Positions 35,123 to 62,585 of a DNA stretch of 64,000 nucleotides are shown in pieces (the stretch's first letter is position 1; each line of letters starts with the position of its first letter). Position numbers and translations under genes: made by a program. The stretch comes from a virus: positions 61,781 to 125,780 of IMG/VR virus record IMGVR_UViG_3300047470_000395; one strand, 5' to 3'. The notes under the pieces are model-generated. The model was not told the DNA's origin. It saw only the letters and a list, made by a program, of their open reading frames with translations, and ran no database searches.

Positions 35123-35623
35123 TCACGCGATTTCCATGCCCGCGTGACACGCCGTGTGGTCCCAGCCGACATCCACGGGGTAGCCGCAGAAGCACGTCCC
35201 CTCGACCGATGGCAGGCCCCGCATACGGCGCTGCAGCGCCTGCATCAGCTCGGTGCGGTGAATCCACCCGCGCTCGCTGACCATCTCCAGGACCTCCGCC
35301 TGGCCGCGTTCGTACCCGTCGAACGCCACGTCCCCGCTGGGCATCGGTCCGTGGGTCGCTTCCCACGCCAGGCGCGTTCCGGTCTCCTCCTCGAGCCGGG
35401 CCACGAACCCGTAGATCCGGCTGCACCGCATCTCGTCGAGCTCGTCCAGGCGCCAGATGTTCCGCTCGGCGTCCTGCCACCACGTGTCTTGAAACAACAG
35501 GTCCGACCAGTGCTCGACAGGTAGCCGACGGCCGCGGGTGATCTCGAAGTCTTCGTCGAACCACTGCTCCTCGAGCCAGGCCCGCCGCTCGGCGCGGCCG
35601 CGGCTCAGGCTGGCGCTACCCAC
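35123..35623 (-). CDS. Hypothetical protein
   Basis: SD GGAGG; overlapping operon; C-terminal CxC…HxxC. Confidence 0.65.
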   Translation of the reverse strand: MGSASLSRGRAERRAWLEEQWFDEDFEITRGRRLPVEHWSDLLFQDTWWQDAERNIWRLDELDEMRCSRIYGFVARLEEETGTRLAWEATHGPMPSGDVAFDGYERGQAEVLEMVSERGWIHRTELMQALQRRMRGLPSVEGTCFCGYPVDVGWDHTACHAGMEIA

Positions 35624-35933
35624 GGTGCGCCCTCCTGCCGTACCCGCCCTCGGCCAGGTCCGCGGCCGCCTTCATGATGGCGAGCCCGTCGGGGTGGTCG
35701 TAGACGGCGCGGACGATCGCGTCGTGCCACGCCTGTTGGCCGCGCAGCACCCGGGCCGCCGCGGCGTCCTTGCGGCGGGCGGCCTCGAGCTGCTGCTCGA
35801 TCGTTGGGCAGTGGCAGACCTCGAGGTCGGGGTTCTCCACCCGGGCGTGACACCCGGGGATGAGGTACCGGCCGCCGTGCTCGTCCTCCCACCAGTGGCA
35901 GACCAGGGTGCGGCCCTCGGGCTTACCGGCCAC
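35616..35933 (-). CDS. Hypothetical Cys-containing protein
   Basis: GTG 35933 overlaps the upstream gene end. Confidence 0.6.
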   Translation of the reverse strand: MAGKPEGRTLVCHWWEDEHGGRYLIPGCHARVENPDLEVCHCPTIEQQLEAARRKDAAAARVLRGQQAWHDAIVRAVYDHPDGLAIMKAAADLAEGGYGRRAHRG

Positions 35934-36369
35934 GGTGCGGCGTCCGGTACTTGTGCTCGAGGGTGCCCCGGCGGTGCTGGAGGACTTCGGCAACGACCGC
36001 GGGCCAGTCGACGGCTTGGTACCGCATCTCGGCGTCCGGGTTCTGCTCCCAGTCCGGCGCGTACCTGTCCTCGGTCAGGAGGGCCTCGGCCAGGCACTCG
36101 CCGCACACCACCCCGTCGGCCTCGCTCTGGTACTTGAGCAGCGTCTCCTTGTGGTCCGGGTGCAGCCGCATGTGCCGCCACGTCGCCTCGACGAGGAGAC
36201 GCCGCCAGTCGACGGCCACGGCGACGCGCTCGAGGATCGCGGCCATCGCGTCCGTGACGGCGTCGTACGCCTCGACGGGCATGGTGGCGATTTCGCCGAA
36301 CGAGTAGTGATGCTGCGGGCCGATCACGTCCTGGCGGAGCGACTCGACGACGGCCTTCCGGTTGGGCAT
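35923..36369 (-). CDS. Hypothetical protein
   Basis: ATG 36369; coding-like composition. Confidence 0.65.
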   Translation of the reverse strand: MPNRKAVVESLRQDVIGPQHHYSFGEIATMPVEAYDAVTDAMAAILERVAVAVDWRRLLVEATWRHMRLHPDHKETLLKYQSEADGVVCGECLAEALLTEDRYAPDWEQNPDAEMRYQAVDWPAVVAEVLQHRRGTLEHKYRTPHRGR

Positions 36370-36427
36370 GGGTGTTCCGTTCTCGGTTCGGGGGCGGTTC
36401 GGGGCGGGGAGCGGGGCTTGGGCGGGC

Positions 36428-37102
36428 CTACCGGCCGCGATGCGTCCCGCTGGCCAGGCGGTCGCGTAGCGCGGCACTGGCGGCCTGCTCGTCCTCGGCG
36501 CTGGGCGGCTGGATGTTGAGCGCGGCGAGAACGGCGCTCAGGATCGTGCCCGGGTCGGCGCCCGGTTCGCCGGCGGCGCCCTCGATCGCGTGCCAAGCAC
36601 GGTCGTGCTCGCCCGGGGTGAGCACTCGCGGCGGCTGCACGTCCCCGCCGGTGACCCGCTGTTGTGCGTACTGGGCGGCCGCGGTGAGCGCGTTACGCAG
36701 CTCGGGCAGCCGGCCCGTGAGGACGACGACGCGCACCGTGGCGGCCTCGTCGTCGTCGCTCGCCTGCCGCGTCACCTCGAACGTGGTCCAGGTGCTGCCC
36801 GGCGACACGGCCAGGGTGTCACCGGTGTGGTCGGCGACGCGGTACTCGCTCCGGGCGCGCAGCGGGGCATCGTAGGCGCGGGCCTGCTCGAGCGCGGCGT
36901 CGAGTTCCGCGGCCTGCTCGATCGTGAGCCACATACTGACGACGTCGCCGCCGAGGGCGAGGTTCTCGGCCTCGACCCACACGTACGGGCGCCGGGTCGC
37001 GTCGGTCGCGGTGCGCAGGATCAGCCGGTGGTTCTGTCCGTCGGTGTAGCAGTACGGGTACGTGGGCTGCTCGAGGACGGCGGCGGTCAGGTCGTTGGGC
37101 AT
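36428..37102 (-). CDS. Hypothetical protein
   Basis: SD AGGAG, ATG 37102. Confidence 0.7.
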   Translation of the reverse strand: MPNDLTAAVLEQPTYPYCYTDGQNHRLILRTATDATRRPYVWVEAENLALGGDVVSMWLTIEQAAELDAALEQARAYDAPLRARSEYRVADHTGDTLAVSPGSTWTTFEVTRQASDDDEAATVRVVVLTGRLPELRNALTAAAQYAQQRVTGGDVQPPRVLTPGEHDRAWHAIEGAAGEPGADPGTILSAVLAALNIQPPSAEDEQAASAALRDRLASGTHRGR

Positions 37103-37293
37103 GGTCGTCTCCTGATGACGGACGGGCGGACGGGTCAGGCGGGCTGAGGGAGGGACAGGCTGGGGAGCTCGAGGGGCCACGGCCGGCGGCGGGCGAACTC
37201 GAGGCGGTCCGGCTTCCAGCGGCCGGAGTTGGGCTTGCGGCGGCGGGGCGTGACGTTCCATCGCATGGCGGTGCCTTCCTGGGCGTGCGGTGG

Positions 37294-37584
37294 TCAAGCG
37301 GCCTGGGTGTCGTTCGGGTCGGGCACGATGCGGAGGTGACGCGGGCGGGACTGCTCGCGCTCGCGGGTCTTCTCGGCGGCCACCTGGGCGGACCGCTGGC
37401 GCTTGCGCTGCGAGGCGGCATCCGGCAGACGCCAACCGGCCTGGGCGTCGGTCAGGGCGGCACGGCGCGCGGCCTGCTGCTCCTGGGTCGTCATCAGCGA
37501 CTGTTGGGGCCGGGCCTCGCTGACGGAGTCGCCGAACCTGCCGGTCGGGATGGCCTCGGCCATGAGGCGCTCGTACGGCGTCAT
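37294..37584 (-). CDS. Hypothetical phage protein
   Basis: SD AGGAG; MTPYERLMAEAIPTG start. Confidence 0.65.
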   Translation of the reverse strand: MTPYERLMAEAIPTGRFGDSVSEARPQQSLMTTQEQQAARRAALTDAQAGWRLPDAASQRKRQRSAQVAAEKTREREQSRPRHLRIVPDPNDTQAA

Positions 37585-37656
37585 CTCGCATCTCCTGCCG
37601 GTTGTGCGGGTGGTGGAGCGGGGGCCGGGCGCGCGGCGGCGCCCGGCCGGGTGGGG

Positions 37657-38157
37657 CTACTTCTCCGGGGCGCGGCTGCACCTGCACTTGTGGCTGCAGC
37701 GCTCGCAGTCCTCGCAGATGTCGTGCGGGCAGCAGCCGCACGGCAGGCGGCGGCTGGGCGGCAACGTGCAGTGGTGCGCCGCGTCCTCCTCGGCGGCCGC
37801 GTCGACCTGGTCCAGGCGGGCCACGGCGGCGCGCACGGCGTCGGCGTCGGCGAGCGTCTCGGCCCGCACCGCGACCTCGTGGGCGTCGAGCATGGCCTTC
37901 GCCTGGTCGTGGTAGACCGGCCCGCCGGCCACCGGGGCGACGAGGTGGTTGAAGATCGGGCGGCGGGTCTCCCGGGACGGGCTCTGCGGCGCGGCGCCCA
38001 GCTCGTCGGCCACGTGGTCGAGCCACATGGCGGACGCGAGCACGCCCGTGTGCGTGTTCTCGTGCGCGGTGTCCGGCAACTGCAGCTCCCGCGAGCGCAG
38101 ATACCGGGCGGCCATGCGCAGAACGCGGGCGTCCTGCTGGGTAAAGACGGGGTCCAT
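37657..38157 (-). CDS. Hypothetical protein with Cys-rich C-terminus
   Basis: SD GGAAGGA; CGCCPHDICEDCERCSHKCRC. Confidence 0.65.
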   Translation of the reverse strand: MDPVFTQQDARVLRMAARYLRSRELQLPDTAHENTHTGVLASAMWLDHVADELGAAPQSPSRETRRPIFNHLVAPVAGGPVYHDQAKAMLDAHEVAVRAETLADADAVRAAVARLDQVDAAAEEDAAHHCTLPPSRRLPCGCCPHDICEDCERCSHKCRCSRAPEK

Positions 38158-38231
38158 CGGTGTCCTTCCTCGGACGTGAGTGGTGGAAGTGCCGGGCCGC
38201 CTGGGGGAACGTCGCGGCCCGGACGGCTGTG

Positions 38232-38684
38232 TCAGAACAGGCCGGACTGTCCGGCGGCCTCGAGCGCCAGGCGCTCCGTCTCGGAGGCCTGCTCGGCCTC
38301 CTGGCGGCGGATCTGCGCCACGAGCGGGGCCTGTCGCTGCGCCTCGGCCGTCTTGCGGGCCTGGAGCTCCGCGGACGTCGCCCAGCGCGTCATCACCTCG
38401 TGGTCGGCGAGCTCGGGCACGTCGCCCAGCGCGGTGCACTTGACGTGCGGGCTCTCGAGACGGCCGGTGACCTCGGCCAGGGTCCGGAGCCAGTTCGGGC
38501 CGTACGCGCCGACGATGACGACGAGCGTCCCGGCCGCGTCGAAGCCCTGCCGCAGGGAGAACCCGTCGGCCTCGTGCCGGTCGGGCCCGCCGGCCTTCTG
38601 CTCGTAGACGTCAAGGCCGAGGTCGACCAGTCCGCCCTCGACGAGATGGCGGCGGATCGTCGACGTGCGCGTGGCTCGAGACAT
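38232..38684 (-). CDS. Hypothetical protein ending QSGLF
   Basis: Preceded by AGAGCA hairpin and SD. Confidence 0.75.
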   Translation of the reverse strand: MSRATRTSTIRRHLVEGGLVDLGLDVYEQKAGGPDRHEADGFSLRQGFDAAGTLVVIVGAYGPNWLRTLAEVTGRLESPHVKCTALGDVPELADHEVMTRWATSAELQARKTAEAQRQAPLVAQIRRQEAEQASETERLALEAAGQSGLF

Positions 38685-38818
38685 GGGTGTCCTCGCTTCG
38701 TGGTCTGGGCCGGTGCTCTCCGGCCCGGGGCGGTGCGCCCTGCTCCTGCGCCGGACGGGCCGGTTCAGGGGCGGAGCGCACCGCCCGCCGTGGGGTGGCG
38801 GGCGGTGCTGCGGGCGGG

Positions 38819-39145
38819 CTACGCCAGGGCGACGGTGACCAGGACGTCCGCGAAGTACGTGTCGGGGTGCTCGCCGTCGTTGATCTCGAGGCCCTGGAAC
38901 TCCCAGTCCGCGGCGATGTCCGCGGCGAGCTCGGCGCGGCCCCTGCGCAGCGCGTGACCGTGGCTCACGGCCTCCACCGAGAACCAGTCGAGACCGGTGT
39001 CACGCAGCGACACCCACGCGGCGTTGGAGTTGTCGCCGACGCGGACGACCTCCGGCAGGATGCGGCGGATCTCGAACCCGGCCACCGGGCGGTCGGTGTA
39101 GACGACGGTGAAGCGGCGCAGCGTCTTGTGCAGGGTCAGGGACAT
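38819..39145 (-). CDS. Hypothetical protein
   Basis: Preceded by AGAGCA hairpin and SD, ATG 39145. Confidence 0.7.
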   Translation of the reverse strand: MSLTLHKTLRRFTVVYTDRPVAGFEIRRILPEVVRVGDNSNAAWVSLRDTGLDWFSVEAVSHGHALRRGRAELAADIAADWEFQGLEINDGEHPDTYFADVLVTVALA

Positions 39146-39234
39146 GGGGTTCCTCACTTCGTGGTGGGGGGCCGGTGCTCTCCGGCCCCGGGGGTGGGGC
39201 GCCCACGGCGGGCGCCCCTGGGGAGCTGCTGCGG

Positions 39235-40128
39235 TCAGGCGGCGAGCAGAAGCTGGGGGTCGTCCGGCAGGCTGTTGAGGAGCGCGTTCCGCCATGCGAT
39301 GGCGTACTTCGGGCAGTTGCCGCAGTGCACGTGCTTGCCGACACAGCCGGGCATCGGGGCCCGGTTCACCGCGTTGTAGGACCAGGCCATGGAGTCGGAG
39401 CTGTAGAGCTGGTGGGCGACGCGGCGGAGACCGGTCTTCTTGAAGCCGAAGCCGTGCAGGCGGATGCCCATGGACCAGACGGTTTCGATGATCCGGGCGG
39501 CCTCGTCGGTCTGCTGCAGGCGGCACACGGAGCCGATGCCGACGACGGGTTCGAGCGTGAGGTCGACGCCCACCTGGTCGTACAGGTCGATGCACCGCAG
39601 GTAGTCGTCGAGCGTGCGGCCCTGGATGACCGGCATCCACGGCAGCTCGGAGTCGAGCGTCATCAGGTTCAGGTACGACGCGACGGTCTTGATCTGGTGG
39701 TCGGCGATCGTGAGGCCGGTCTTCGCGAGGATCTCGTCCTCGCACATCCAGTCCTGAATGGCACACATGTCCATCAGGCCGATCTCGTCGTGGTACCGGC
39801 GCGCCGCCGCGGCGTACGTGTACGGCGAGACCGTCCAACGGCCGTGCTGCGACAGCTCCGTGAACCCGCGGGAGTCGAGCATCCACGGGGTGACGGCGCG
39901 CGGCAGGGTCTTACGGTCGGCCAGGCGCCCGTGGGAGACGCACAGCGGGATGCAGTCGTTGCCGAACTCTTCGCGGGCGAGCCAAGACGGCTGGTGCGTG
40001 CCCAGGTACGTCACGCGGTCGAAGTCGGCGAACCAACGGCGGTCGGCGTAGACGGGCGCGGGGCGCTTTGCCTGGGGCTGCGCATTCGCCGCCGGGGCGG
40101 GAATGTCGAAGAGTGCGGCATTGGCCAT
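39235..40128 (-). CDS. TGT/DpdA-like guanine transglycosylase-fold protein
   Basis: LDSRGF, QDWMCE, PVIQG, GIGSVC, LHGFG, SSDSMAW, plus a Cys/His cluster, in TGT motif order. Confidence 0.7.
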   Translation of the reverse strand: MANAALFDIPAPAANAQPQAKRPAPVYADRRWFADFDRVTYLGTHQPSWLAREEFGNDCIPLCVSHGRLADRKTLPRAVTPWMLDSRGFTELSQHGRWTVSPYTYAAAARRYHDEIGLMDMCAIQDWMCEDEILAKTGLTIADHQIKTVASYLNLMTLDSELPWMPVIQGRTLDDYLRCIDLYDQVGVDLTLEPVVGIGSVCRLQQTDEAARIIETVWSMGIRLHGFGFKKTGLRRVAHQLYSSDSMAWSYNAVNRAPMPGCVGKHVHCGNCPKYAIAWRNALLNSLPDDPQLLLAA

Positions 40129-40197
40129 GGTGTTCCTCGCTTCGTGGTCCGTTGGCGGTGCTCTCCGCCAACACGAGGAATAGTACACCCTGGGCAA
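40129..40197 (-). promoter_or_regulatory. Full leader module (promoter box, AGAGCA hairpin, ACCACGAA, SD)
   Basis: TTGCCCAGGGTGTACTATTC-CTCGT-GTTGGCGG AGAGCA CCGCCAAC-GGACCACGAAGCGAGGA. Confidence 0.8.
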
Positions 40198-40272
40198 CAC
40201 GTGGGGTAGGGGTACGGGGAAACGGAAGCGGGGGACCGCCCACCAGGACGACCCCCCGCGGTGCGGGCCGGC

Positions 40273-40860
40273 TCAGCCCTCCGGGGTCAGGAACACCGCG
40301 GCCCGGCCGTCGTCGTAGCGCAGCCGCAGCGTCCGCCCGTCCGTATGCCGGTCCAGCCGCATCCCGTTCTCGGCGAGCGCCTCGGCCACCCTGTGCGCCA
40401 CCTGGTCCCCGGGCACGGCCTGGCCCTCGACGACGTCGCCGACCGTGACCCGGTACGCCGTGCCCGGGTCGACGATCTGGGCCGCGATACCGGCGCGCTG
40501 GTGCTCCGAGTACACCGGCGTGCCCGCGGCTTCCCGTACCCACTCCCGCGGAGGCAGGGCGGGCAGGCCCAGGACGTCGGTCCAGCCGTCCAGCAGCCAC
40601 ACGGTGGTGCCCTCGACGGGTCCGCGCTTGCGGATGGCGGGCGTGCCGTCCATGCGGAGCCGGTCCCCCGTCACATGCACCGTGCCAGACGCCGGGTCGG
40701 ACGCCATGCGGGCCGCGGTGATCCGGAGCTGGTACGGGCGGGCGTTCGGGATCCCCGACAGGGCCTCCGTCACCGTGATGGTCCGGCCCACCAGAGCGCG
40801 CACCGCCTCCGGCTGCTCGTCGAGGTCCTCGGGCTGTTCAGGCATCGTCGTCGTCTCCAT
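40273..40860 (-). CDS. Hypothetical protein
   Basis: Coding-like ORF in the left arm. Confidence 0.65.
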   Translation of the reverse strand: METTTMPEQPEDLDEQPEAVRALVGRTITVTEALSGIPNARPYQLRITAARMASDPASGTVHVTGDRLRMDGTPAIRKRGPVEGTTVWLLDGWTDVLGLPALPPREWVREAAGTPVYSEHQRAGIAAQIVDPGTAYRVTVGDVVEGQAVPGDQVAHRVAEALAENGMRLDRHTDGRTLRLRYDDGRAAVFLTPEG

Positions 40861-40923
40861 CGGGAAGGGGTCGGGGGCCAGTCTGCCCGCGCCGGAGCGG
40901 GCCCGGCGCGGGCATGGGGTAGA

Positions 40924-42018: not shown

Positions 42019-42108
42019 GGCGGGCGTCCTCGAGGGCGTGGAGCGGGCGGAGCGGGGCGGGGAGCGGGAGCGGGGGGCGCAGCACGGGCCGCGCCCCCTG
42101 GGGGGCCG

Positions 42109-42555
42109 TCAGCGGTACCAGTGGCCGAACTGGTTGCGGCGGGTCACGTACATCTCGGCGTGCTCCTCGTCGCGCCACTCGCACGGGGGCAGCGCGTAGC
42201 GGACGACCGCGCCGAACCGGCAGGTGGATACGACGGTCGCCGTGTCGCCGTCGTGAAGGGTGATCACGTCGCCGGTCTCCAGCCCCAGGAAGTCCGGGGT
42301 CGGCGCGCTCGCTTCGTTCCTCCACCAGGCGCCCCACGCCTTCGGCGCGTGCGGGGACCTCGAGAGCGGCGCGAACTGGTCGCCGGGCCGGTAGTCGATC
42401 CACTCGATGGTGTCCGCCTTCGGGCTGTACAGGTGCTCACGGTCGTACGCGGCCGGGACGCTCGAGACGGGCAGCTCTCCCAGGGCGAGCGGCCTACGGG
42501 CCTTCGCGGGGGCCGGGGCGGCGGGGACGACGTCGAACAGGGCGAGGGTCTGCAT
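42109..42555 (-). CDS. Hypothetical protein starting MQTLALFD
   Basis: SD GGAGG, ATG 42555. Confidence 0.7.
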   Translation of the reverse strand: MQTLALFDVVPAAPAPAKARRPLALGELPVSSVPAAYDREHLYSPKADTIEWIDYRPGDQFAPLSRSPHAPKAWGAWWRNEASAPTPDFLGLETGDVITLHDGDTATVVSTCRFGAVVRYALPPCEWRDEEHAEMYVTRRNQFGHWYR

Positions 42556-56146: not shown

Positions 56147-56241
56147 CCCACCGGCCGCCCGGCCCCCGCCCTCACCGGCGGGGGCCGCCGTCGTTCCCGG
56201 CCCCGTGCAACAGCCCGCCGCCGTACACCGTTCCCCCGGTC

Positions 56242-56538
56242 ATGAGCCTGCCGATACCGCCCCACGCCGCGCCGTACGCCCCGTTCGCCCCACCCGTGAC
56301 CCTCAGCGCCACCGTCACCGTGAACGGCCTGGAGATCGGCGCGCAGGAGTGCGTGGACCCCCACGCCTGGGCCGCCATGTCGACCGACCCGGCCGCCGTC
56401 GCCGCGTACGAGCGCCTCGTCCTGCAGCGCCTGGGCGCCGCCCTGGTGAAGCACCTGGCCCCGGCCGTCACCGTCGACGTCCCCGCCGTGCCGGTCCGGG
56501 CCGATCGTCAGACCGCCGACGTACGCTCCGAAGCATGA
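56242..56538 (+). CDS. Hypothetical protein
   Basis: ATGA overlap with the next gene. Confidence 0.55.
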   Translation: MSLPIPPHAAPYAPFAPPVTLSATVTVNGLEIGAQECVDPHAWAAMSTDPAAVAAYERLVLQRLGAALVKHLAPAVTVDVPAVPVRADRQTADVRSEA

Positions 56539-56957
56539 GCACCCCCACCCCTTCCCCGGAGGAGACTCCGTTCGATCCGCACGCCTTCCCCGTCGACCTG
56601 GTCGACGCGCAGCGCGAGCTCGCCGAGGCGTACACCGCGCTGCACACGCTGCAGAAGCGGCTCCCCTGGTCCCGGGAGCCTCACCCCGGATGGCCGGACG
56701 TGGAGGACCGGGGCAGGGAGCGAGCCGGCCGCGCGGCCTCCCCCGGCTGGGACCCGGCCGACGCCGCGGCGTACGACAAGCTGTGGGAGGACCTGCGGGA
56801 AGCGGCGGCCGTGGTCCAGGGGCACCGGTGGTGGAGTACCTGCCGGGTCAACGGGCTCGAGGGCGCGGCCCTGGTCGACGTCCGCCAGGCCCTCAAGACC
56901 GCGAAGGGCGCCGTCCCGGCCGCCCTCGAGCGCGCGGACGTCACCGCGGCCGCCTGA
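56535..56957 (+). CDS. Hypothetical phage protein
   Basis: FPVDLVDAQREL…LPWSREP. Confidence 0.65.
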   Translation: MSTPTPSPEETPFDPHAFPVDLVDAQRELAEAYTALHTLQKRLPWSREPHPGWPDVEDRGRERAGRAASPGWDPADAAAYDKLWEDLREAAAVVQGHRWWSTCRVNGLEGAALVDVRQALKTAKGAVPAALERADVTAAA

Positions 56958-57046
56958 CCGGCGTTCCTGTCCGACCGGCCCCCAGAGCGGGGAAGGGGTA
57001 CAGGGCGGCCCACACGGGGCGCGCCCCCGCTCGAGAGGGGCCCACC

Positions 57047-57256
57047 GTGGCTCTCCCCGTCCGCACCTACCTGGTGACCAACGCCCGCGCCCTGTTCGGC
57101 CCGGGTGCGCGCATCGTCGTCCGCAGCACGGCCCCGGCCGGTGCCGTCGTCGACGACGTCTTCCGCGGCCGCGCCATCCGCGTGGAGCTCACCGACACCC
57201 CGCTGCCCGCGTACGGCGACGTCTACGCCGCGGAGCTGCAGCTCCCCCGCCTGTAG
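57047..57256 (+). CDS. Small hypothetical protein
   Basis: SD GAGGGG, GTG 57047. Confidence 0.5.
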   Translation: MALPVRTYLVTNARALFGPGARIVVRSTAPAGAVVDDVFRGRAIRVELTDTPLPAYGDVYAAELQLPRL

Positions 57257-57278
57257 CCGGAACGCCCCTGCGGCCCTG

Positions 57279-57623
57279 TCAGCCTCCGGCAGGGCCGCGC
57301 CGGGGCATGTCCCCCTGCCGCTCCTCGTCGACGCCCTGGGATGGCGCGGAGTCGCTCCGGCGGGCCACGCGCAACCCCGGCTGTGGCCACTGGTACGTGA
57401 GGATCCGGACCGTCGTGTCCCCGTGCAGGTCGACCTCGACCTGGTAGCGGGTGCTGCCGTCGGCCCAGGTCTGCCGCGCCACGACCGGCGCGTTCCGCCA
57501 CTTCCCGCCGGACATCACCTGCAGCGCCGGGCGGTCCGTGCGAGGCCACGTCCACACCTCCGGCCGCGGCCCGTCTTCCTGGCGCCACGGCCGGGCCGGT
57601 ACCGCGTCCGGGATCTCTGCCAT
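57279..57623 (-). CDS. Small beta-rich hypothetical protein
   Basis: SD GGAGG, ATG 57623. Confidence 0.65.
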   Translation of the reverse strand: MAEIPDAVPARPWRQEDGPRPEVWTWPRTDRPALQVMSGGKWRNAPVVARQTWADGSTRYQVEVDLHGDTTVRILTYQWPQPGLRVARRSDSAPSQGVDEERQGDMPRRGPAGG

Positions 57624-57709
57624 GCCTCCGACTGTAGGCAGCGCGCGACGCAAGGCGTAGCAGGCCCCCACGATCCGCGGCCTTACCCGTCCGTCCGGAA
57701 GGCCCCGCC

Positions 57710-58081
57710 GTGAAGACCCACCGCCCGCAGTCCGAGCAGCACTCCCGCCTGGTCGTCGCCCTCGGTGCTGGCCTGCTCGTGTTCGCCCTGGTGGTGCTGT
57801 TCGCCGCCCTGGTCGCCGACGACGACGACAGCGACAGCAGCTCCCACCGCTGCCCGGGGTACGCCGTCGGCACCGTCGACCCGTACACCTGCCTCCCCTA
57901 CAGCCACGCCCACGGGCACGGGCACGGCGGAGGGGCGACGGCCAACCGCCCCGGGAGCAGCGCCCGCCGGCCCGCGCAGCCTTCGCGGCCGAAGGCGCCC
58001 GCCGTGAAGGTCCCGGCCGCGCCCAAGGCACCGGCGCCCAAGGCCCCTGCCGCGCCCCCGCGGCTCTCCCTGCGGAAGTGA
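57710..58081 (+). CDS. Membrane-anchored protein with Cys pair
   Basis: TM helix, C…C, Pro/Lys-rich tail. Confidence 0.65.
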   Translation: MKTHRPQSEQHSRLVVALGAGLLVFALVVLFAALVADDDDSDSSSHRCPGYAVGTVDPYTCLPYSHAHGHGHGGGATANRPGSSARRPAQPSRPKAPAVKVPAAPKAPAPKAPAAPPRLSLRK

Positions 58082-58150
58082 CCGCGCGACACAAGCCGTC
58101 CCGGCCCGGCACCGTCCGCGCGCCTGCTCACCCCATACGGAAGGAACCCC

Positions 58151-58501
58151 GTGTCTGACACCGCCCCGGCCTCGGACGAGCTCGAGCTGATCTCCGACAA
58201 CCGCTGTGTGCGCTACAACCGCGCGATCCTCGCCCTGCTCCTGGTGAACCTCGCCGCCACCGTCGGGTTCGGCGTCCTCGGCGTGCACGACCGCGACCAG
58301 GCGGCGAAGCCGAACCCGAAGCCGTCGCACACCGCGACGTCGACCCCCAGGCCGAGCGCGACCCCGAGCGCGCCGGAGCCGTCCGGCCCGTCCACCCCGC
58401 TCCCGTCGCTGACCATGCCCCCGGACCCGTCGGGCACCGCGTGCAACATCTTCGACCCCGAGTGCGACAGCGGCTCCAGCACCGGCGGCGCCTCGAGCTG
58501 A
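58151..58501 (+). CDS. Membrane-anchored Pro/Ser/Thr-rich protein
   Basis: SD AAGGA; TM helix; CNIFDPEC. Confidence 0.65.
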   Translation: MSDTAPASDELELISDNRCVRYNRAILALLLVNLAATVGFGVLGVHDRDQAAKPNPKPSHTATSTPRPSATPSAPEPSGPSTPLPSLTMPPDPSGTACNIFDPECDSGSSTGGASS

Positions 58502-58707
58502 CCCCCTCCGCACTGCTGCGCCCCGGCCGGACGACTCCCCGGCCGGGGCGCAGTCATGTCCGGGCCCGCCCGCGGCCGGCCCAGGGTGACCGGCCAGTAA
58601 CCGAGCGGCGGACACAAAACCTCCACATCAGGAAGGGTGCGCCTCCGCTCGCCGCACGTCCGCGGCCGCCGACCGGTGGCCACGTGCCGCGGGCAGAAAG
58701 GAGCAGC

Positions 58708-59175
58708 GTGCAACCGCACGTCATGAAGGCCATGCACGACTGGCGCATGAGCTGGGACGACCAGCAGTTCGCCGCCCAACACGCCTTCACCACGGCGTTC
58801 CCCGCCCTCACCCCGGCGGAGAAGTGCCAGTGCTACGGCCCCACCCTGCGCTGGGAAACCCCCAGCGAGGGCCAGGGCAAGGTGTGCTTGGACGACCACG
58901 GGCGCGCCACGATCGAATTCGAGCGCGTCCCCAAGGCCGCGGTCGGCCAGGCCATGAAGGAGACATGGGGCGCCGACTGGTTCGACGAGGGCCCCGGCGG
59001 GTTCGCCGAGGCGGAGCCAGGCAGCTACCACTACGAGGACGAGCAGTCGTACGCGGAGTACGAGTTCGACGTCCACGACGACGGGACCGTCACGTTCGGG
59101 ATCTCCTACGTGAAGATCGACGACATCGTGACGATCCTCGACGAGCTCGAGCAGGCCCTGGCCGTGCACCGCTGA
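58708..59175 (+). CDS. Acidic hypothetical protein
   Basis: SD AAAGGAG. Confidence 0.7.
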   Translation: MQPHVMKAMHDWRMSWDDQQFAAQHAFTTAFPALTPAEKCQCYGPTLRWETPSEGQGKVCLDDHGRATIEFERVPKAAVGQAMKETWGADWFDEGPGGFAEAEPGSYHYEDEQSYAEYEFDVHDDGTVTFGISYVKIDDIVTILDELEQALAVHR

Positions 59176-59184
59176 CCCGGGCGC

Positions 59185-59232
59185 GAGGTGACGTGACGCG
59201 GTGCCCGGATCCGTACCGCATCACGTCACCTG
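59185..59232. repeat. GTGAC inverted-repeat site (16-N16-16)
   Basis: GAGGTGACGTGACGCG-N16-CGCATCACGTCACCTG. Confidence 0.85.
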
Positions 59233-59252
59233 CCCCCGGCAGAATGGGCGGC

Positions 59253-59801
59253 ATGGACTCCGCCGTCGCGTTCACCGCCGCCCTGGCCATCACCGCCGTG
59301 GGCGGGATCGTGGCCCACCGCATGATGCGCGTCAGCACGTCCGCGGCCGTCCCCCGGCCGGTCGTCGACGGCCAGGCGCTGAGGCGTACGCACGAGCGGC
59401 GCGCAGAGACGTACACCGAGTTCTCCACGACCGCGGGCCAGATCGCCGCCACGGTCATGCTGTGGCCGCACCTGCCGCAGGCCGCCCGACCCCACGCGCT
59501 CGACCAGGCACGCGCCCACCTGCAGAAGCTGTGCGCCCAGCACGCGGCAGTGCTGGCCGACTCCGACACGGGCATCCGGGACGCTGCCGCCGCGGTCGTC
59601 GCCGACTCCGAGCGGCTCGTCGACGCGCTCGTCCTGGACGCCGACCCGGGCCCGGAGGAGCTGCGCCTCGCCGCGGCGCAGGACCTCACCCTGCCGTTCC
59701 TCCGGGCGTGCCGGGAGTACCTCGAGGCCGAGTCCGAACGGCACTTCGGTCTCCACCCCGCCGCCGGGCGCAGCCTGTTCGGCCGCCTCTCCCCGAGGTG
59801 A
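59253..59801 (+). CDS. Membrane-anchored helical protein
   Basis: N-terminal TM helix then HERRAETYTEF. Confidence 0.65.
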   Translation: MDSAVAFTAALAITAVGGIVAHRMMRVSTSAAVPRPVVDGQALRRTHERRAETYTEFSTTAGQIAATVMLWPHLPQAARPHALDQARAHLQKLCAQHAAVLADSDTGIRDAAAAVVADSERLVDALVLDADPGPEELRLAAAQDLTLPFLRACREYLEAESERHFGLHPAAGRSLFGRLSPR

Positions 59802-59842
59802 CGTGACGCGCCCAGAGCTGCGGATTCGCGTCACGTCACCTC
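59795..59842. repeat. GTGAC inverted-repeat site (perfect 16-N16-16)
   Basis: GAGGTGACGTGACGCG-N16-CGCGTCACGTCACCTC. Confidence 0.9.
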
Positions 59843-59896
59843 ACGGCGCACCGTAGCGCGCGACGCAAGCCGCGCCCGTTCGTACGGTCCGCGGTC

Positions 59897-60250
59897 ATGT
59901 CTCCGACCGCCGTACTGCCCCGCACCCGGATCGCCGGCCTCGCGGCCCGCGCCCGGAACATCGTGGACTCCGGCCTGGTCTCCCGCACGGCGGCTGTCCC
60001 CGACTGGCCCGCCCGCCTGGACCAGCTCCACCACCTGACCGCGACCCCCGCCGCCGACCGGGGCGCCGCAATCGCACGGCTCGACGACCGCGTCCTGTGC
60101 GACCTCCTGATCCTGTCGTACCTGCACAACGGCACCCCGTACGCCCTGTGGGCGGACAACCTCGCCGGGTTCGCCGAGGACGTCCTGGGCGCGCCGACGT
60201 GGGCGCACCTGCAGACGTTCGTCGACTTCCTGGCGCGGAGGGACCGATGA
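59897..60250 (+). CDS. Hypothetical protein
   Basis: ATGA overlap with the next gene. Confidence 0.6.
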   Translation: MSPTAVLPRTRIAGLAARARNIVDSGLVSRTAAVPDWPARLDQLHHLTATPAADRGAAIARLDDRVLCDLLILSYLHNGTPYALWADNLAGFAEDVLGAPTWAHLQTFVDFLARRDR

Positions 60251-60696
60251 AGAACTGGCCCCAGAAATATCGGACCCGCCGCATTGGGCGGCGTGCATGG
60301 CTCACGAGCAAGGTCCACCCGCCGGTCAACAACGACGGCATCACCATTCGAACCTGGCGCCTGTTCGCTTTCCCCGTCGACCTCGACTTTGCGCTGGTCA
60401 CGCTCGCCCCGCGAGCAGAGTTCGGTCGCAGAGGCCAGCGTGCTCCCGGCACGTGGAGACGAGCCCTGACGAACTGGTGGCGGTACAGCGGATGGGCGGG
60501 AACGTCCTACTGCCCGGACCGTCCGAACCTGCGGAACGGGGTTGGCCTGGTCGTCCCCTGCCTCCAACTGAGTCTGAACTGGACGACCGACCGGCAGCGC
60601 GCTGTCATATCAGCCCACTCGCTGGAGGCCTGCGCGGCGTGCGAAGAGGAGCAGCGGCGCTTGTGGGAACGCTGGCGGGCGCAGGGCACGACGTAA
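60247..60696 (+). CDS. Hypothetical protein
   Basis: SD GGAGG. Confidence 0.55.
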   Translation: MKNWPQKYRTRRIGRRAWLTSKVHPPVNNDGITIRTWRLFAFPVDLDFALVTLAPRAEFGRRGQRAPGTWRRALTNWWRYSGWAGTSYCPDRPNLRNGVGLVVPCLQLSLNWTTDRQRAVISAHSLEACAACEEEQRRLWERWRAQGTT

Positions 60697-60799
60697 GCCC
60701 CCGCCCCCGTCCACTCTCCCCGCCTCGCCCCAGGGTGCGCCCACCAGGGCCGTGAACACCGCGGTCCGGCACCCCGGGGCAGGCGAGGAGACCAGTGCT

Positions 60800-61156
60800 G
60801 TGAAGGCACGACGGCGAACCGGGCCCACCGACGTGGTGAAGGCGATCGTCTACGACCGGGACGGCGGCGCGTGCGTGCGCTGCAACGGTCGGCAGGACTT
60901 GACCATCCACCACCGCGTGAACCGCGGCATGGGCGGCGCGCGGGAGGCGTGGATCAACCAGGCGCACAACCTGCTGCTCGTGTGCACGGTGTGCAACTCC
61001 TGGTTCGAGGACAACCCGCGGGAGTCATACACGGCGGGGTGGAAGGTCCGCCGGCCGGAGCTGCCCGGCGAGGTCCTGGTGCGCTACCCCGACGGCCGCG
61101 ACTACGTGCTCACCCCCGACGGTGTGCGCTCCACGACCGTGGCGGCCGCCCGATGA
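60800..61156 (+). CDS. HNH endonuclease
   Basis: VYDRDGGACVRC…LTIHHR…NLLLVCTVCN. Confidence 0.85.
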   Translation: MKARRRTGPTDVVKAIVYDRDGGACVRCNGRQDLTIHHRVNRGMGGAREAWINQAHNLLLVCTVCNSWFEDNPRESYTAGWKVRRPELPGEVLVRYPDGRDYVLTPDGVRSTTVAAAR

Positions 61157-61599
61157 AACTCCCCCGCGTCTTCCGCTTCCCCCGCCCGTTCTGGACCGAG
61201 AAGCGGGTACGTCGCGCCTCGCGCGCCCTGACCGTGGCGTTCATCGCCCTGGACCTGGTACTCATCGCGCTCGCCTGGTACCTGTGGCCCGTGCCGTACC
61301 TGGTCACGGCCGCATACACCGTGTGGATGGCGCTGACGTGGGTCAAGCGGCCGCACTTCCTGGACTTCGGACGGTTCACCGCTGGCGTGTGGCCGGTACG
61401 ACCGGACATGAATACGCCGATCCTCGGTCTCTTCTGGGCGCGGCACGGCAACGGCGCCAAGGGTCCGAAGGCTGGCCTCGAGCTCGTGATCGGCAGCCAC
61501 GGCATGGGCGTCTTCGCCCTGGTGCCGCGCAGCGAATGGCCCGCCTACAAGCAGGCGAAGGCCAAGCGGCGCGCCCGGCGGAAGGAGCTCGAGGTATGA
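61153..61599 (+). CDS. Membrane protein
   Basis: Two TM helices; ATGA overlaps on both sides. Confidence 0.65.
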   Translation: MKLPRVFRFPRPFWTEKRVRRASRALTVAFIALDLVLIALAWYLWPVPYLVTAAYTVWMALTWVKRPHFLDFGRFTAGVWPVRPDMNTPILGLFWARHGNGAKGPKAGLELVIGSHGMGVFALVPRSEWPAYKQAKAKRRARRKELEV

Positions 61600-61856
61600 G
61601 CCCCCGCCACCGGATGCAGCGCACGATGCGCGCCCCTCGAGGTCTGCGCCTGGGCCCGATCTGGCTGTGGGCTGCGCGCGTCCCGCAGGGACCGGCCCTC
61701 GGGTACGGGCCGATCGCGACGACCGACACTCCCCGCAACCCAGCTCCCGGCCAGCAGTACATGCGCGAGGGCAGCGGCCGCGTCCTGGTCCTGGGCGGCA
61801 TCGCGTTCGCGGTGCTCCGCTGCAGGTCAGTGCCCGTGCCCGCGCGGCACTCCTGA
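61596..61856 (+). CDS. Small hypothetical protein
   Basis: ATGA overlap. Confidence 0.5.
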   Translation: MSPRHRMQRTMRAPRGLRLGPIWLWAARVPQGPALGYGPIATTDTPRNPAPGQQYMREGSGRVLVLGGIAFAVLRCRSVPVPARHS

Positions 61857-61864
61857 CAGGGTGA

Positions 61865-61884
61865 TTTACCTGGGTGTACTATTC
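61865..61884 (+). promoter_or_regulatory. Promoter-box variant
   Basis: TTTACCTGGGTGTACTATTC. Confidence 0.7.
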
Positions 61885-61964
61885 TCCGCGTTGTGGCGGG
61901 ATGGGGCTTCCCCAGCCGCCGCAGCCGGCGCAAGACCGCGCCACGGAAACGGAGAACAGCCACC

Positions 61965-62585
61965 ATGCCCAAGGCTGGGATTACCTACGGCCCGCGCATC
62001 GCGGCCCCGGACTACGAGCAGATCGCCCGTGACGCCGAGCGCCAGGTCCTTGAGGAGCTCGGCCTCGAGCGCGCCGAGGACCTGGTCGCCAAGGCGCGCC
62101 CCGACACCCTGGTCGTCAAGGCCGCGGAAGTCCTGCAGCAGGCGGACGCGGAGCTCGCGGCCTACCTCGGCGACCGGGACCGGGCGCTCGCACACCTGTG
62201 GTTCTACGAGCAGCGCCTGGGCCTGTCGAAGACCGTGGGCCTGACGAACATCGGCTTCCGCCAGATCCTCGCGAAGATGATGGTCGGCGACAAACGGGGC
62301 GCGCTGCCGGCGAACCTGTCGAACGAGGAGCTTGTCCAGGCCGCGGAGGCGGCAGGCATCGAGCGCGTCGAGAACGCCGAGGCGAAGCTCCTGGAGACGG
62401 CCCCGATCGTGTTCGCCGCCCGGACCCGCCGGGACGTCGCCGTGCGCTACATGCAAGAGGCAGTGCTCGCCCTCTCGCAGGAGCCCTACGGCTGGTCGCC
62501 CGACCGGATCGCCGAACACGCGGGCGTCCACCGTGACTTGATCTACAAGCAGCGCAGGACGGCCCGGAAGCGCCACGGCATGTGA
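61965..62585 (+). CDS. Putative HTH DNA-binding protein
   Basis: C-terminal GWSPDRIAEHAGVHRDLIYKQRR. Confidence 0.7.
   Translation: MPKAGITYGPRIAAPDYEQIARDAERQVLEELGLERAEDLVAKARPDTLVVKAAEVLQQADAELAAYLGDRDRALAHLWFYEQRLGLSKTVGLTNIGFRQILAKMMVGDKRGALPANLSNEELVQAAEAAGIERVENAEAKLLETAPIVFAARTRRDVAVRYMQEAVLALSQEPYGWSPDRIAEHAGVHRDLIYKQRRTARKRHGM

What the first reader, a model, noticed from the sequence alone, without database searches (positions are those of the whole stretch)
35123..62585. 27-kb bidirectional early/establishment gene array built from reusable leader and terminator modules
Seen: about 45 mostly small unknown genes, nearly all in two arms diverging from back-to-back modules at 47.7-47.9 kb. 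They are punctuated by promoter boxes, AGAGCA hairpins and recurring GCCGGGGCGC…GCGCCCCGGC hairpins (e.g. ~48990, ~49367, ~50740, ~43571). The few recognisable genes modify or cut DNA. Inference: a host-takeover or anti-defence region expressed on entry, with cassettes shuffled through the repeats. It is a candidate source of new anti-defence proteins.
Basis: inference. Interest (0 to 1): 0.8.

Follow-up and report, generated by a model that had tools for sequence, protein, structure and literature searches.

The report
Modular accessory-gene arms of a Streptomyces phage-plasmid
The right end of a 126-kb Streptomyces phage-plasmid holds two back-to-back strings of about 45 small, mostly unknown genes that are wired together by a few re-used promoter, RNA-hairpin leader and terminator-like modules, and whose gene content changes cassette by cassette between relatives.

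Summary
The window is the right 64 kb of a 125.8-kb relative of Streptomyces phage Gilgamesh, one of a large family of ~125-133-kb phage-plasmids. Bases 35123-62585 hold 45 genes in two arms diverging at 47.7-47.9 kb. They carry six clear copies and one degenerate copy of a 20-bp promoter-like box. They also carry 12 copies of a covarying AGAGCA-loop 5' leader hairpin, which is absent from Rfam and almost confined to the element. Strong GC hairpins follow most genes. Four of 45 proteins have a recognisable function, and all four act on DNA: DpdA, a PAPS-reductase-like partner, a C5-methyltransferase and an HNH nuclease.

Gene content is mosaic. Near-identical variants differ by single cassettes, and one cassette sits on opposite arms in different relatives. 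The box/leader regulon also drives replication and transfer genes, and it differs from the promoter class in front of virion genes. The distal plus arm (57.7-61.9 kb) carries that late-type promoter class. Expression on entry, anti-defence function and repeat-mediated shuffling remain untested; one junction examined showed no repeat.

The scan had already noted the leader and the box on this genome. The closest analogue is the SAS/ESAS system of Cluster K mycobacteriophages.

The parts
35123..47671 (-). Minus arm: 18 genes, running from fam19 (617 aa, next to the divergence point) down to the gene next to parAB
   Evidence: GC3 gene calls; spacers; synteny families
47672..47946 (.). Divergent control region: back-to-back promoter-like boxes (47760-47779 minus, degenerate; 47861-47880 plus), each followed by a leader hairpin
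47947..57256 (+). Proximal plus arm: 17 genes, nearly all monocistronic and separated by GC hairpins
57279..62585 (+). Distal plus arm: one minus-strand gene (57279-57623), then 10 plus-strand genes, partly overlapping by 4 nt. Late-type promoter motifs end at 57674 and 58115, with a variant before 59897. Includes the HNH nuclease. Probably late or packaging-linked.
40178..40197 (-). 20-bp promoter-like box (P-box) in front of dpdA
44088..44107 (-). P-box in front of fam16
50276..50295 (+). P-box in front of fam25 (arginine-rich protein)
54752..54771 (+). P-box in front of the C5 methyltransferase
61865..61884 (+). P-box variant in front of fam46; followed by a different, longer hairpin
38682..38729 (-). 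Leader module (stem, AGAGCA loop, stem, ACCACGAA, SD, ATG) of fam10
   Evidence: cmsearch E 1.4e-15
39143..39191 (-). Leader module of fam11
40126..40174 (-). Leader module of dpdA
44035..44083 (-). Leader module of fam16
45182..45226 (-). Leader module of fam17
47669..47721 (-). Leader module of fam19 (variant loop)
47899..47949 (+). Leader module of fam20
48387..48432 (+). Leader module of fam21
50298..50349 (+). Leader module of fam25 (best score, 68.7 bits)
51364..51417 (+). Leader module of the 75-aa gene at 51415
51718..51778 (+). Leader module of the first fam29 paralog
54775..54829 (+). Leader module of the C5 methyltransferase (loop AGAGCG)
39235..40128 (-). DpdA (DNA guanine transglycosylase for 7-deazaguanines); the N-terminus carries an ALFD motif
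   Evidence: Pfam PF23859, E 6.8e-80
40924..42018 (-). PP-loop PAPS-reductase-like protein; same phyletic pattern as DpdA
   Evidence: Pfam PF01507, 4.5e-14; phrog_424
54827..56146 (+). C5 cytosine DNA methyltransferase
   Evidence: Pfam PF00145, 1.6e-17
60800..61156 (+). HNH endonuclease
   Evidence: phrog_740, 5e-28
50347..50724 (+). fam25: conserved 125-aa protein, pI 12, with an arginine-rich N-terminus; function unknown
40242..40921 (-). fam13 cassette (gene 40273-40845 plus one spacer); absent from a ~99%-identical metagenomic variant and from L022
49357..49920 (+). fam23 cassette (upstream spacer, gene 49422-49868, own hairpin). It lies on the minus arm, inverted, in Gilgamesh and CP107934. 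It is replaced in run X2.
43571..43603 (.). GCCGGGGCGC...GCGCCCCGGC hairpin (further copies at 48991-49017, 49367-49392 and 50740-50773)
62603..62631 (+). The only canonical stem-plus-T-tract terminator of the array; it closes the plus arm
   Evidence: read

Best explanation
The region is the accessory, non-structural part of a Gilgamesh-like Streptomyces phage-plasmid.

Shown:
- It is built as two divergent strings of single-gene cassettes.
- A handful of near-identical promoter-like boxes, with a core that resembles a -10 element, start transcription.
- At four boxes a 7-9-bp hairpin with the conserved loop AGAGCA begins 5-6 nt after the box, so it would sit at or near the 5' end of the RNA. 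It is followed by ACCACGAA, a strong Shine-Dalgarno sequence and the start codon.
- The same leader also sits in front of cassettes that have no box. It stays with its gene family across relatives, and its stem covaries.
- Most genes end in a strong GC hairpin without a U-tract. Only the end of the plus arm has a canonical terminator.
- Gene content turns over cassette by cassette.

Inferred:
- The boxes are read by the host RNA polymerase, early or in the plasmid state. The element's ECF-type sigma factor serves the separate late class.
- The GC hairpins attenuate transcription or protect 3' ends rather than stop it fully.
- The leader hairpin is a cis-acting RNA element that stabilises the 5' end and/or is the handle of a regulator, so that about 18 non-structural genes form one regulon.
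- The payload includes replication-coupled DNA modification (DpdA with its PP-loop partner, and a C5 methyltransferase) that protects the element's DNA from restriction.
- The other roughly 40 proteins are candidates for establishment or counter-defence, but nothing shows this yet.
- The last ~5 kb of the plus arm belongs to the late, packaging side.
For: Identity of the element:
- The window is the right end of a 125,780-bp virus record estimated 97% complete.
- It is 81% identical over 59% of a 12-kb query to phage Gilgamesh.
- ParA is present. Large-terminase homologues lie on 7 Streptomyces plasmid records of 125-133 kb. Circular relatives show the same layout.
- 38 of 100 listed fam19 clusters have their longest contig at 124-133 kb.

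Modules.

Leader:
- 69 hits at E<=1e-5 in 430,628 bases, of which 18 are in this genome and 12 in the region.
- 89.2% of cells are paired against 59.4% in shuffles. Six of 7 pairs show changes on both sides. The covariation score is 0.60 against 0.17, and slid controls reach at most 0.15.
- Compensatory changes occur between orthologous leaders, for example in fam10, fam12 and fam19.
- All 12 leaders fold into the hairpin, with the SD mostly unpaired in the centroid structures.
- No Rfam match.
- The leader is kept with families 12, 16, 19, 20, 25, 29, 32 and 53 in every compared relative that has the gene.
- In five whole Streptomyces genomes the hits sit almost only on the element: 16 of 19, 16 of 18, 11 of 12, 9 of 12 and 9 of 13.

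Regulon class:
- The late motif has 14 hits against 1.4 expected, and 11 of them lie outside the array, on the plus strand in the packaging, structural and lysis part of the genome.
- The sigma factor is of ECF type.
- The box or leader also precedes an IstB-like ATPase operon, an AAA_24-like ATPase and, through an 18-codon upstream ORF, an FtsK/SpoIIIE translocase.

Cassette turnover.

DNA modification:
- DpdA at E 6.8e-80.
- DpdA and the PAPS-like protein share one phyletic pattern.
- No QueC, PTPS or GTP cyclohydrolase I in the element.
- Phage DpdA-dependent 7-deazaguanines protect DNA from restriction (PMC6884629, passages read).
Against: - No RNA run holds the element, so timing, transcript ends and processing are all inferred.
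- A consensus sigma-70 scan finds no promoter in 35-55 kb, and the box has no shared -35. Its role as a promoter is itself an inference.
- Late-type motifs occur inside the block at 57674 and 58115, and one at 43566 may be chance.
- 41 of 45 proteins have no recognisable function. Neither Pfam (all 45 proteins) nor PHROGs (20 of them) named a known anti-defence family beyond the DNA-modification enzymes, and PADLOC was not run.
- The covariation alignment was fitted to the model, and the sequences are related.
- In Hutinet et al. a 'DpdA-only' mycobacteriophage had unmodified DNA, so modification here is not assured.
- Only 150 of more than 12,000 first-look candidates per genome were scored.
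Confidence: 0.6

Rival explanations
1. This is a plasmid-state ('moron') array. The cassettes are expressed constitutively while the element is carried as a plasmid, and they serve host fitness or exclusion of other elements rather than entry.
For: - Each cassette has its own terminator-like hairpin, and several have their own promoter-like box, which is the layout of phage morons (recalled: Juhala et al. 2000).
- The relatives are maintained as circular plasmids.
- The -10-like box could be read by the housekeeping sigma factor at any time.
Against: - The same box/leader system drives replication-type and translocase genes.
- No repressor-independent expression has been shown.
- Nothing tells entry from carriage without RNA data.
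Confidence: 0.25
2. The AGAGCA element works on DNA, not RNA. It would be an oriented operator, like the stoperators of Cluster A mycobacteriophages, where a repressor bound in spacers silences both arms during carriage.
For: - The sites lie in spacers and always point with transcription.
- At four boxes the site starts 5-6 nt after the box, a typical operator position.
- The box-linked copies share an almost palindromic 22-mer.
Against: - The stem sequence varies freely while pairing is kept, including between orthologues. A protein that reads duplex DNA would not need this.
- The fixed distance to the SD and start codon points to the RNA.
Confidence: 0.12
3. The leader hairpin is a nut- or put-like antitermination signal. 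It lets polymerase that starts at a few boxes read through the many GC hairpins, as in the two early arms of phage lambda.
For: - There are two divergent arms, hairpins close to the promoters, about 40 terminator-like hairpins and only about 7 boxes.
- A conserved arginine-rich protein, fam25, is encoded in the arm.
Against: - Leaders are tied to start codons and also occur far from any box.
- fam25 was not found, with this query, in two genomes that have 18 and 12 leader hits, nor in CP108666.
- The fam25 fold gave no meaningful match: best Z 5.3, rmsd 3.0 A, 60 residues aligned.
Confidence: 0.12
4. This is an ordinary mosaic non-structural arm. The shared modules are inherited or converged strong expression signals and play no part in gene exchange. 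Cassettes move by illegitimate recombination followed by selection at gene borders.
For: - The fam13 junction shows no repeat or microhomology; the window's insert replaces 8 nt of L022.
- Breakpoints at gene borders are the rule in mosaic phages (recalled: Hendrix and colleagues).
Against: - Spacers that flank the variable slot between fam21 and fam24 are about 91% alike over 34 nt.
- The fam23 cassette moved together with both flanking hairpins and is more similar (85-88%) than its neighbours (about 70-80%).
- Palindromic hairpins read alike on both strands, which would allow exchange between the mirrored arms (inference).
Confidence: 0.35

Closest known systems
[quoted passage not shown] 2011, PMC3203893; passages read)
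   Same: - A phage-specific motif fused to the SD just upstream of start codons, with an inverted repeat just before it.
- 11-19 copies per genome, confined to the non-structural arm.
- Kept with the same gene families across relatives and absent from the host.
- Function still unverified in 2025 (PMC12699233, passages read).
   Different: - No sequence likeness: the SAS consensus has 0 matches in the window.
- Here the loop is conserved and the stem varies, whereas in ESAS the 17-bp arms are conserved and the spacer varies.
- Here there is clear covariation for an RNA hairpin.
- Here the motif is combined with a 20-bp promoter-like box and lies on two divergent arms of a phage-plasmid.
Stoperators of Cluster A mycobacteriophages (L5 gp71 sites; recalled, and mentioned in PMC3203893)
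   Same: Many short oriented sites in spacers, all pointing with transcription.
   Different: Stoperators are 13-bp duplex DNA sites without hairpin covariation and without a link to start codons.
Lambda early arms with nut sites and N antitermination (recalled)
   Same: Two divergent early arms, promoter-proximal RNA hairpins with a conserved loop, and several terminators to read through.
   Different: - Leaders here are start-codon-linked and far more numerous.
- No boxA was identified.
- No N-like partner co-occurs consistently.
Morons of lambdoid phages (recalled)
   Same: Single genes bracketed by their own expression signals and inserted between other genes; variable between relatives.
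   Different: Here they form the whole of two long arrays, and they share one family of signals.
Anti-defence islands in the leading region of conjugative plasmids (Samuel et al. 2024, PMC11541004; search listing and abstract only)
   Same: - Co-oriented runs of small, mostly unknown genes with DNA methyltransferases on a mobile element.
- Some genes here (fam19, the PAPS-like protein, C5 methyltransferases) also lie beside transfer genes of the conjugative plasmid CP108666.
   Different: - Streptomyces transfer uses a double-strand FtsK-like translocase (recalled).
- No ssDNA promoter and no known anti-defence family such as ArdA was seen.
- Entry order is unknown for this phage.
DpdA-only phages (third group of Hutinet et al. 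2019, PMC6884629; passages read)
   Same: DpdA is present without QueC, QueD or FolE in the element.
   Different: DpdA here is tied to a PAPS-reductase-like PP-loop protein, and both carry an N-terminal ALFD motif.

Membership tests
SAS/ESAS-type start-associated regulatory motif | Conserved asymmetric motif that includes the SD, a few bases upstream of start codons | tested here: met
   The model ends at the ATG, and the predicted ATG equals the called start for the matched genes (one of them lies 51 nt away)
SAS/ESAS-type start-associated regulatory motif | The Cluster K consensus sequence GGGATAGGAGCCC | tested here: not met
   0 matches with up to 2 mismatches. This is an analogue, not a member.
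SAS/ESAS-type start-associated regulatory motif | Restricted to non-structural genes, kept with gene families, absent from the host | tested here: met
Structured cis-regulatory RNA (any Rfam family) | Match to a curated covariance model | tested here: not met
   An E-value scan of 33-64 kb gave one unrelated sub-threshold hit, at 63234-63350
Lambda-type nut/N antitermination | Promoter-proximal hairpin plus a co-occurring arginine-rich RNA-binding protein | tested here: inconclusive
   The hairpin is present. The candidate fam25 was not found in 3 of 5 records or genomes searched, including two rich in leaders.
Cluster A stoperator-like DNA operator | Oriented duplex DNA site bound by the repressor, with no need for pairing | tested here: inconclusive
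   The orientation fits. Stem covariation argues for RNA. Binding is not testable here.
Phage-plasmid | Virion genes plus partition genes on one replicon, with relatives kept as extrachromosomal circles | tested here: met
   ParA; Gilgamesh virion genes and ParA/ParB; TerL on circular 125-133-kb plasmid records
DpdA DNA transglycosylase | Pfam PF23859 above the curated cut-off | tested here: met
   268.6 bits against a cut-off of 27
DpdA DNA transglycosylase | 7-deazaguanine present in the element's DNA | not testable with these tools
   Needs LC-MS/MS of virion or plasmid DNA
Plasmid leading-region anti-defence island | Known anti-defence genes (ArdA, KlcA, PsiB, Acr and the like) and ssDNA promoters next to oriT | tested here: inconclusive
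   Pfam on 45 of 45 proteins named none of them apart from a methyltransferase. ssDNA promoters and oriT were not tested.
Moron | Single gene with its own promoter and terminator | tested here: inconclusive
   Terminator-like hairpins follow 25 of 35 genes, but there are only about 7 boxes for 45 genes

The most novel reading that the evidence does not exclude
The AGAGCA leader would be a new class of cis-regulatory RNA that defines a regulon of about 18 genes in a widespread but unstudied family of Streptomyces phage-plasmids.

A factor encoded by the element (not yet identified; fam25 is a weak candidate) would bind the conserved loop and the ACCACGAA tract. It would switch the whole accessory, replication and transfer gene set on or off after transcription. 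This would be the RNA counterpart of a phage repressor, deciding between silent carriage and establishment.

Because the leader travels with each cassette, any gene captured with it would join the regulon at once. That would make the arms a plug-in platform for counter-defence genes.
Probability: 0.25. Interest if true: 0.75.

Novelty: new variant of a known kind. Interest (0 to 1): 0.55.

Why it matters
Phage-plasmids of about 127 kb related to Gilgamesh appear in dozens of Streptomyces genomes. I found no paper on them: a full-text search for 'Streptomyces phage' with 'Gilgamesh' gave 0 papers, and the 12 papers listed for 'phage-plasmid' with 'Streptomyces' do not treat this family.

The arms give a defined, bounded set of roughly 40 unknown proteins per element. 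That set turns over quickly and sits beside DNA-modification genes, which makes it a sensible place to screen for counter-defence or host-takeover functions in an industrially important genus.

The leader hairpin is a clean, covarying, element-specific RNA motif with an easy experimental handle. It may also throw light on the long-unexplained SAS/ESAS motifs of mycobacteriophages. The box, leader and hairpin parts could serve as compact expression parts for Streptomyces.

Tried and rejected
Scans that do not work on this DNA:
- A naive ORF list and a first GC3 filter were replaced by the gene caller. At 70-76% GC, six-frame ORF lists are useless.
- The consensus sigma-70 and terminator scan found 0 promoters, and 3 terminator-like sites against 2.1 expected. 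It does not capture these signals.

Search for a trans-acting RNA: no free-standing sequence complementary to the loop or to ACCACGAA exists. ACCACGAA occurs once outside leader sites.

Protein function:
- The PDB sequence search gave nothing for fam19, fam17 or fam29.
- The protein atlas gave only unnamed clusters for fam25 and nothing usable for fam19.
- The fam19 model (pLDDT 86, pTM 0.40) had no Foldseek match at E<=0.001. VIA matched only generic four-helix bundles over residues 404-507 (best Z 12.1, rmsd 3.5 A, 97 residues aligned). The model is over 400 residues and single domains were not folded, so other parts are barely tested.
- The fam25 model (pLDDT 89, pTM 0.78) had no Foldseek match. 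The best VIA Z was 5.3 (rmsd 3.0 A, 60 residues aligned, ParA2 N-terminal region), which is below a meaningful level.
- Complex prediction with S. coelicolor DnaN and DpdA residues 1-40 gave no verdict.

Expression: no RNA holder is listed among 24 runs. The many short-sided joints in read-laying table 5 (side 20-25) were ignored as cross-matches, as the tool warns. Only long bridging contigs from table 8 were used.

Literature:
- phiC31 early promoters and conserved inverted repeats: the search listed 5 papers, none on the subject. My memory of those elements is too vague to use.
- Motif strings: 353 papers hold at least one of three strings. The 10 listed are unrelated primer-type hits, and the rest were not seen.
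- The IGUA paper (PMC13659240) does not concern this family.

Not done:
- PADLOC was not run.
- PHROGs was run on 20 of 45 proteins only.
- Supplements of papers were not opened.
- The whole-genome leader scans score only 150 first-look candidates per genome.

Full report
WHAT THE DNA IS

The window is G000:C1:61781-125780, the right 64 kb of a 125,780-bp virus record that is estimated 97% complete. It has 66-77% G+C.

A 12-kb query from the middle of the finding matches only Streptomyces phage Gilgamesh among 50,697 phage records, at 81% identity over 59% of the query. It matches pieces of 9 Streptomyces plasmid records.

Gilgamesh (129,136 bp) is annotated with virion genes, two tyrosine integrases, an FtsK-like translocase, ParA, ParB and a sigma factor.

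The large-terminase protein of this genome has full-length homologues (65-76% identity, at least 94% covered) on seven Streptomyces plasmid records of 125-133 kb. Three of them (CP108533, CP107934, CP109288; circular) show the same ParA, divergent-arm and terminase layout.

Of the 100 listed clusters of fam19 homologues, 38 have their longest contig between 124 and 133 kb. The element therefore belongs to a large family of Streptomyces phage-plasmids. I found no paper on it.

CHECK OF THE OBSERVATION

Six-frame ORF lists are meaningless at this G+C, so I called genes by third-position G+C, with start choice by SD.

In 35123-62585 there are 45 genes:
- 18 on the minus strand (35123-47671);
- 26 on the plus strand (47947-62585);
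- one minus-strand gene (57279-57623) inside the plus arm.

One 34-aa call was dropped as spurious. ParA (33247-34020) and its partner lie just left of the block.

After the stop codon comes a GC hairpin 10-20 nt on, then in some spacers a 20-bp box, then in some a short hairpin with the loop AGAGCA, then ACCACGAA, an SD and the start codon.

- The GCCGGGGCGC...GCGCCCCGGC hairpin occurs at 43571, 48991, 49367 and 50740 (4 matches against 0.00 expected).
- The box core occurs 7 times against 0.03 expected, six of them in the block.

A hairpin of -25 kcal/mol or stronger follows 25 of 35 array genes with a spacer of 40 nt or more. This compares with 25 of 61 other genes and 15% of random windows.

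Only one hairpin, after the last gene of the plus arm (62603-62631), has a proper T-tract.

The modules recur on both arms in transcription sense, so they are mirror images on the DNA.

THE LEADER HAIRPIN

Fifteen of the 55 AGAGCA words in the genome have a flanking stem of 5 bp or more, and 14 of these precede a start codon.

I aligned 39 instances from this genome, Gilgamesh and three plasmids and built a covariance model from them. The model finds 69 sites at E<=1e-5 in 430,628 bases. Eighteen are in this genome: 15 in the window, of which 12 in the block, and 3 in the left half.

On that alignment:
- 89.2% of cells pair, against 59.4% in shuffles.
- 6 of 7 pairs change on both sides.
- The covariation score is 0.60 against 0.17, with 0 of 500 shuffles as high.
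- Sliding the partner by 1-3 columns drops the score to 0.15 or less.

The alignment was fitted to the model, which favours the structure. Orthologous leaders, however, show plain compensatory changes: C:G to U:A in fam10 and fam12, and wholly different stems in fam19.

All 12 leaders of the block fold into the hairpin, and the SD stays mostly unpaired in the centroid structures. Z-scores run from -0.4 to -3.6, with 8 of 12 at -2 or below. Simple SD occlusion is therefore unlikely.

Rfam has nothing like it. ACCACGAA is almost exclusive to leader sites, and no antisense partner exists.

The leader stays with its gene. Families 12 (DpdA), 16, 19, 20, 25, 29, 32 (methyltransferase) and 53 carry it in every compared relative that has the gene.

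In five whole Streptomyces genomes the hits lie almost only on the element:
- 16 of 19 on one contig;
- 16 of 18 on one contig;
- 11 of 12 within 42 kb of a chromosome;
- 9 of 12 on one contig;
- 9 of 13 on one contig.

Only 150 first-look candidates per genome were scored in that search.

The conjugative plasmid CP108666 has a single copy, in front of its fam19 homologue.

THE BOX AND THE TWO PROMOTER CLASSES

Across relatives the conserved part of the box is GGTGTACTATTC. The upstream half drifts. The box holds a TAnnnT-type hexamer but has no shared -35, and the consensus scan sees no sigma-70 promoter.

At four boxes the hairpin starts 5-6 nt after the box. A transcript would therefore begin at or near the foot of the hairpin. 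This is an inference.

I tested it:
- It has 14 strict hits against 1.4 in shuffles.
- 11 lie outside the array, all on the plus strand, and 9 of them end 7-76 nt before a called same-strand start.
- The other two overlap the start of their gene: one ends 4 nt inside a 135-aa gene, the other about 10 nt inside the giant gene.
- The genes they precede include the large terminase and the lysin homologue.

The element's sigma factor is of ECF type. It is the natural candidate for this late class, again by inference.

The box/leader system also precedes an operon with an IstB/DnaC-like ATPase (box at 18985-19004). It precedes an AAA_24-like ATPase, though that Pfam hit lies below the curated cut-off. 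Through an 18-codon upstream ORF it also precedes an FtsK/SpoIIIE translocase. So it marks the non-structural gene set.

Two late-type motifs lie inside the block, in front of the genes at 57710 and 58151. A variant lies before 59897.

The genes from 59897 to 61856 partly overlap by 4 nt and include an HNH endonuclease (phrog_740, 5e-28). In circular relatives this arm runs straight on into the large terminase gene. The last ~5 kb is thus more likely late.

GENE CONTENT AND CASSETTE TURNOVER

Pfam on all 45 proteins gives three hits above the curated cut-off:
- DpdA (E 6.8e-80);
- PAPS_reduct (4.5e-14);
- C5 DNA methylase (1.6e-17).

PHROGs on 20 proteins adds the HNH nuclease and two families of unknown function.

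I compared the block with Gilgamesh and three plasmids:
- The shared genes keep their order.
- Only 13 of 45 genes are in all four relatives, and 4 are in none.
- The slot between fam21 and fam24 holds 0, 1, 2 or 4 genes, depending on the element.
- fam6, fam24 and fam41 are duplicated in one element or another.
- fam23 lies on the plus arm here and in CP109288, but on the minus arm, inverted, in Gilgamesh and CP107934.

The fam23 match runs from 7 nt after the preceding stop codon to 52 nt after its own stop. It is 85-88% identical, against roughly 70-80% for the flanking backbone.

Of 209 blastn segment ends against nine relatives, 94 (45%) fall in spacers, which make up 14% of the block (binomial p about 1e-27). 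The relatives are not independent.

The closest IMG/VR relative (L022, 88-95% identical) lacks exactly the fam13 gene plus one spacer. A contig of run X2 that is about 99% identical over 2.2 kb bridges 40241 to 40922 with 22 other letters between. Another X2 contig replaces 49396-49875, the fam23 ORF, with about 470 letters. X2 and X4 replace 43335-43561 with 327 letters.

At the fam13 junction I see no repeat or microhomology. By contrast, the spacers around the variable fam22/fam23 slot are about 91% alike over 34 nt. Exchange through the repeats is possible at some sites and not shown at any.

WHAT THE PAYLOAD MAY DO

DpdA and the PAPS-reductase-like PP-loop protein have the same phyletic pattern: both are in this element, Gilgamesh and CP107934, and both are absent from the other two. 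They are neighbours.

The element has no QueC, PTPS or GTP cyclohydrolase I. It therefore resembles the 'DpdA-only' phages of Hutinet et al. 2019. In that paper DpdA-dependent 7-deazaguanines protect phage DNA from restriction, but one DpdA-only mycobacteriophage was unmodified (passages read).

DpdA, the PAPS-like protein and the next protein (fam15) all begin M-x-x-[AL]-A-L-F-D followed by a Pro/Ala-rich linker. They are the only 3 of 149 proteins that do. fam10 ends in QSGLF, and fam17 holds QEGLF. These resemble sliding-clamp-binding motifs (recalled consensus QL[SD]LF).

fam19, the PAPS-like gene and C5 methyltransferases also lie next to transfer genes on the conjugative plasmid CP108666. 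That fits a general establishment role on mobile elements, but it is weak evidence.

fam25 is a conserved 125-aa protein with pI 12, 31 Lys+Arg and an arginine-rich N-terminus, and it has the best leader. It was not found, with this query, in two genomes rich in leaders or in CP108666. It is therefore a poor candidate for an obligatory leader-binding factor.

VERDICT

- The architecture is real, non-random and conserved across a large family of elements.
- The leader is a new, well-supported RNA motif whose closest analogue is the unexplained SAS/ESAS system of Cluster K mycobacteriophages.
- The block is a fast-evolving accessory region with DNA-modification genes. It is under a regulon separate from the late genes, except for its last ~5 kb.
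- Expression on entry, anti-defence roles for the unknown proteins and repeat-mediated shuffling remain hypotheses.
- The same scan had already noted the leader family and the 20-bp box on this genome. It had also noted the DpdA/PP-loop pair, the clamp-like motifs and the phage-plasmid nature on look-alike genomes.

Noticed in passing
window 40105-40128, 41995-42018, 42532-42555 (minus strand N-termini); also the C-terminus of 38232-38684: DpdA, the PAPS-reductase-like protein and fam15 all start M-x-x-[AL]-A-L-F-D followed by a Pro/Ala linker (3 of 149 proteins). fam10 ends in QSGLF and fam17 holds QEGLF. These look like sliding-clamp-binding motifs and suggest DNA modification tethered to the replisome. 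The complex prediction with DnaN gave no verdict.
   Followed up: partly
G000 10248-10311 (locus L018), minus strand: The leader in front of the FtsK/SpoIIIE-like translocase gene is followed by an 18-codon upstream ORF. Its stop abuts the GTG start of the translocase gene, which suggests translational coupling.
   Followed up: partly
window 24156-24860 (-) and the genome-wide CGCGAC-N19-CANNNT sites: The element encodes an ECF-type sigma factor. A fixed-spacing motif (14 strict hits against 1.4 expected) precedes the terminase, structural and lysis genes, in some cases within 10 nt of the start, so those mRNAs may be leaderless.
   Followed up: partly
window 38685-38818 (-) and 48283-48429 (+): These two spacers, one on each arm, are homologous over most of their ~130 nt. 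Each holds a long-range hairpin that encloses a second hairpin, upstream of the leader. They precede unrelated genes (fam10 and fam21).
   Followed up: no
window 51776-52606 and 52675-53514: Tandem paralogues (fam29, 276 and 279 aa) are kept as a pair in all five compared elements. Only the first carries the leader. Their pI values are 5.5 and 10.3.
   Followed up: no
window 14147-14166 (+), and Gilgamesh 74788: A variant of the 20-bp box (5 mismatches) is conserved in Gilgamesh. It points against the flanking minus-strand genes and could drive an antisense transcript.
   Followed up: no
window 45818-47671 (fam19) homologues: fam19 homologues range from 343 to 997 aa, with conserved ends and a variable middle. 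The model has several confident domains but no informative fold match.
   Followed up: partly
CP109288 record 17678-18115 (locus L015): One relative carries a gene annotated 'replication/maintenance protein RepL' in the variable region between the sigma-factor gene and parA. The replicon of the family is otherwise unidentified.
   Followed up: no
window 63938-64000 (right end of the record): The record ends in a run of 15 G within very GC-rich sequence. blastn-short found no repeat shared between the first and last 3 kb.
   Followed up: no
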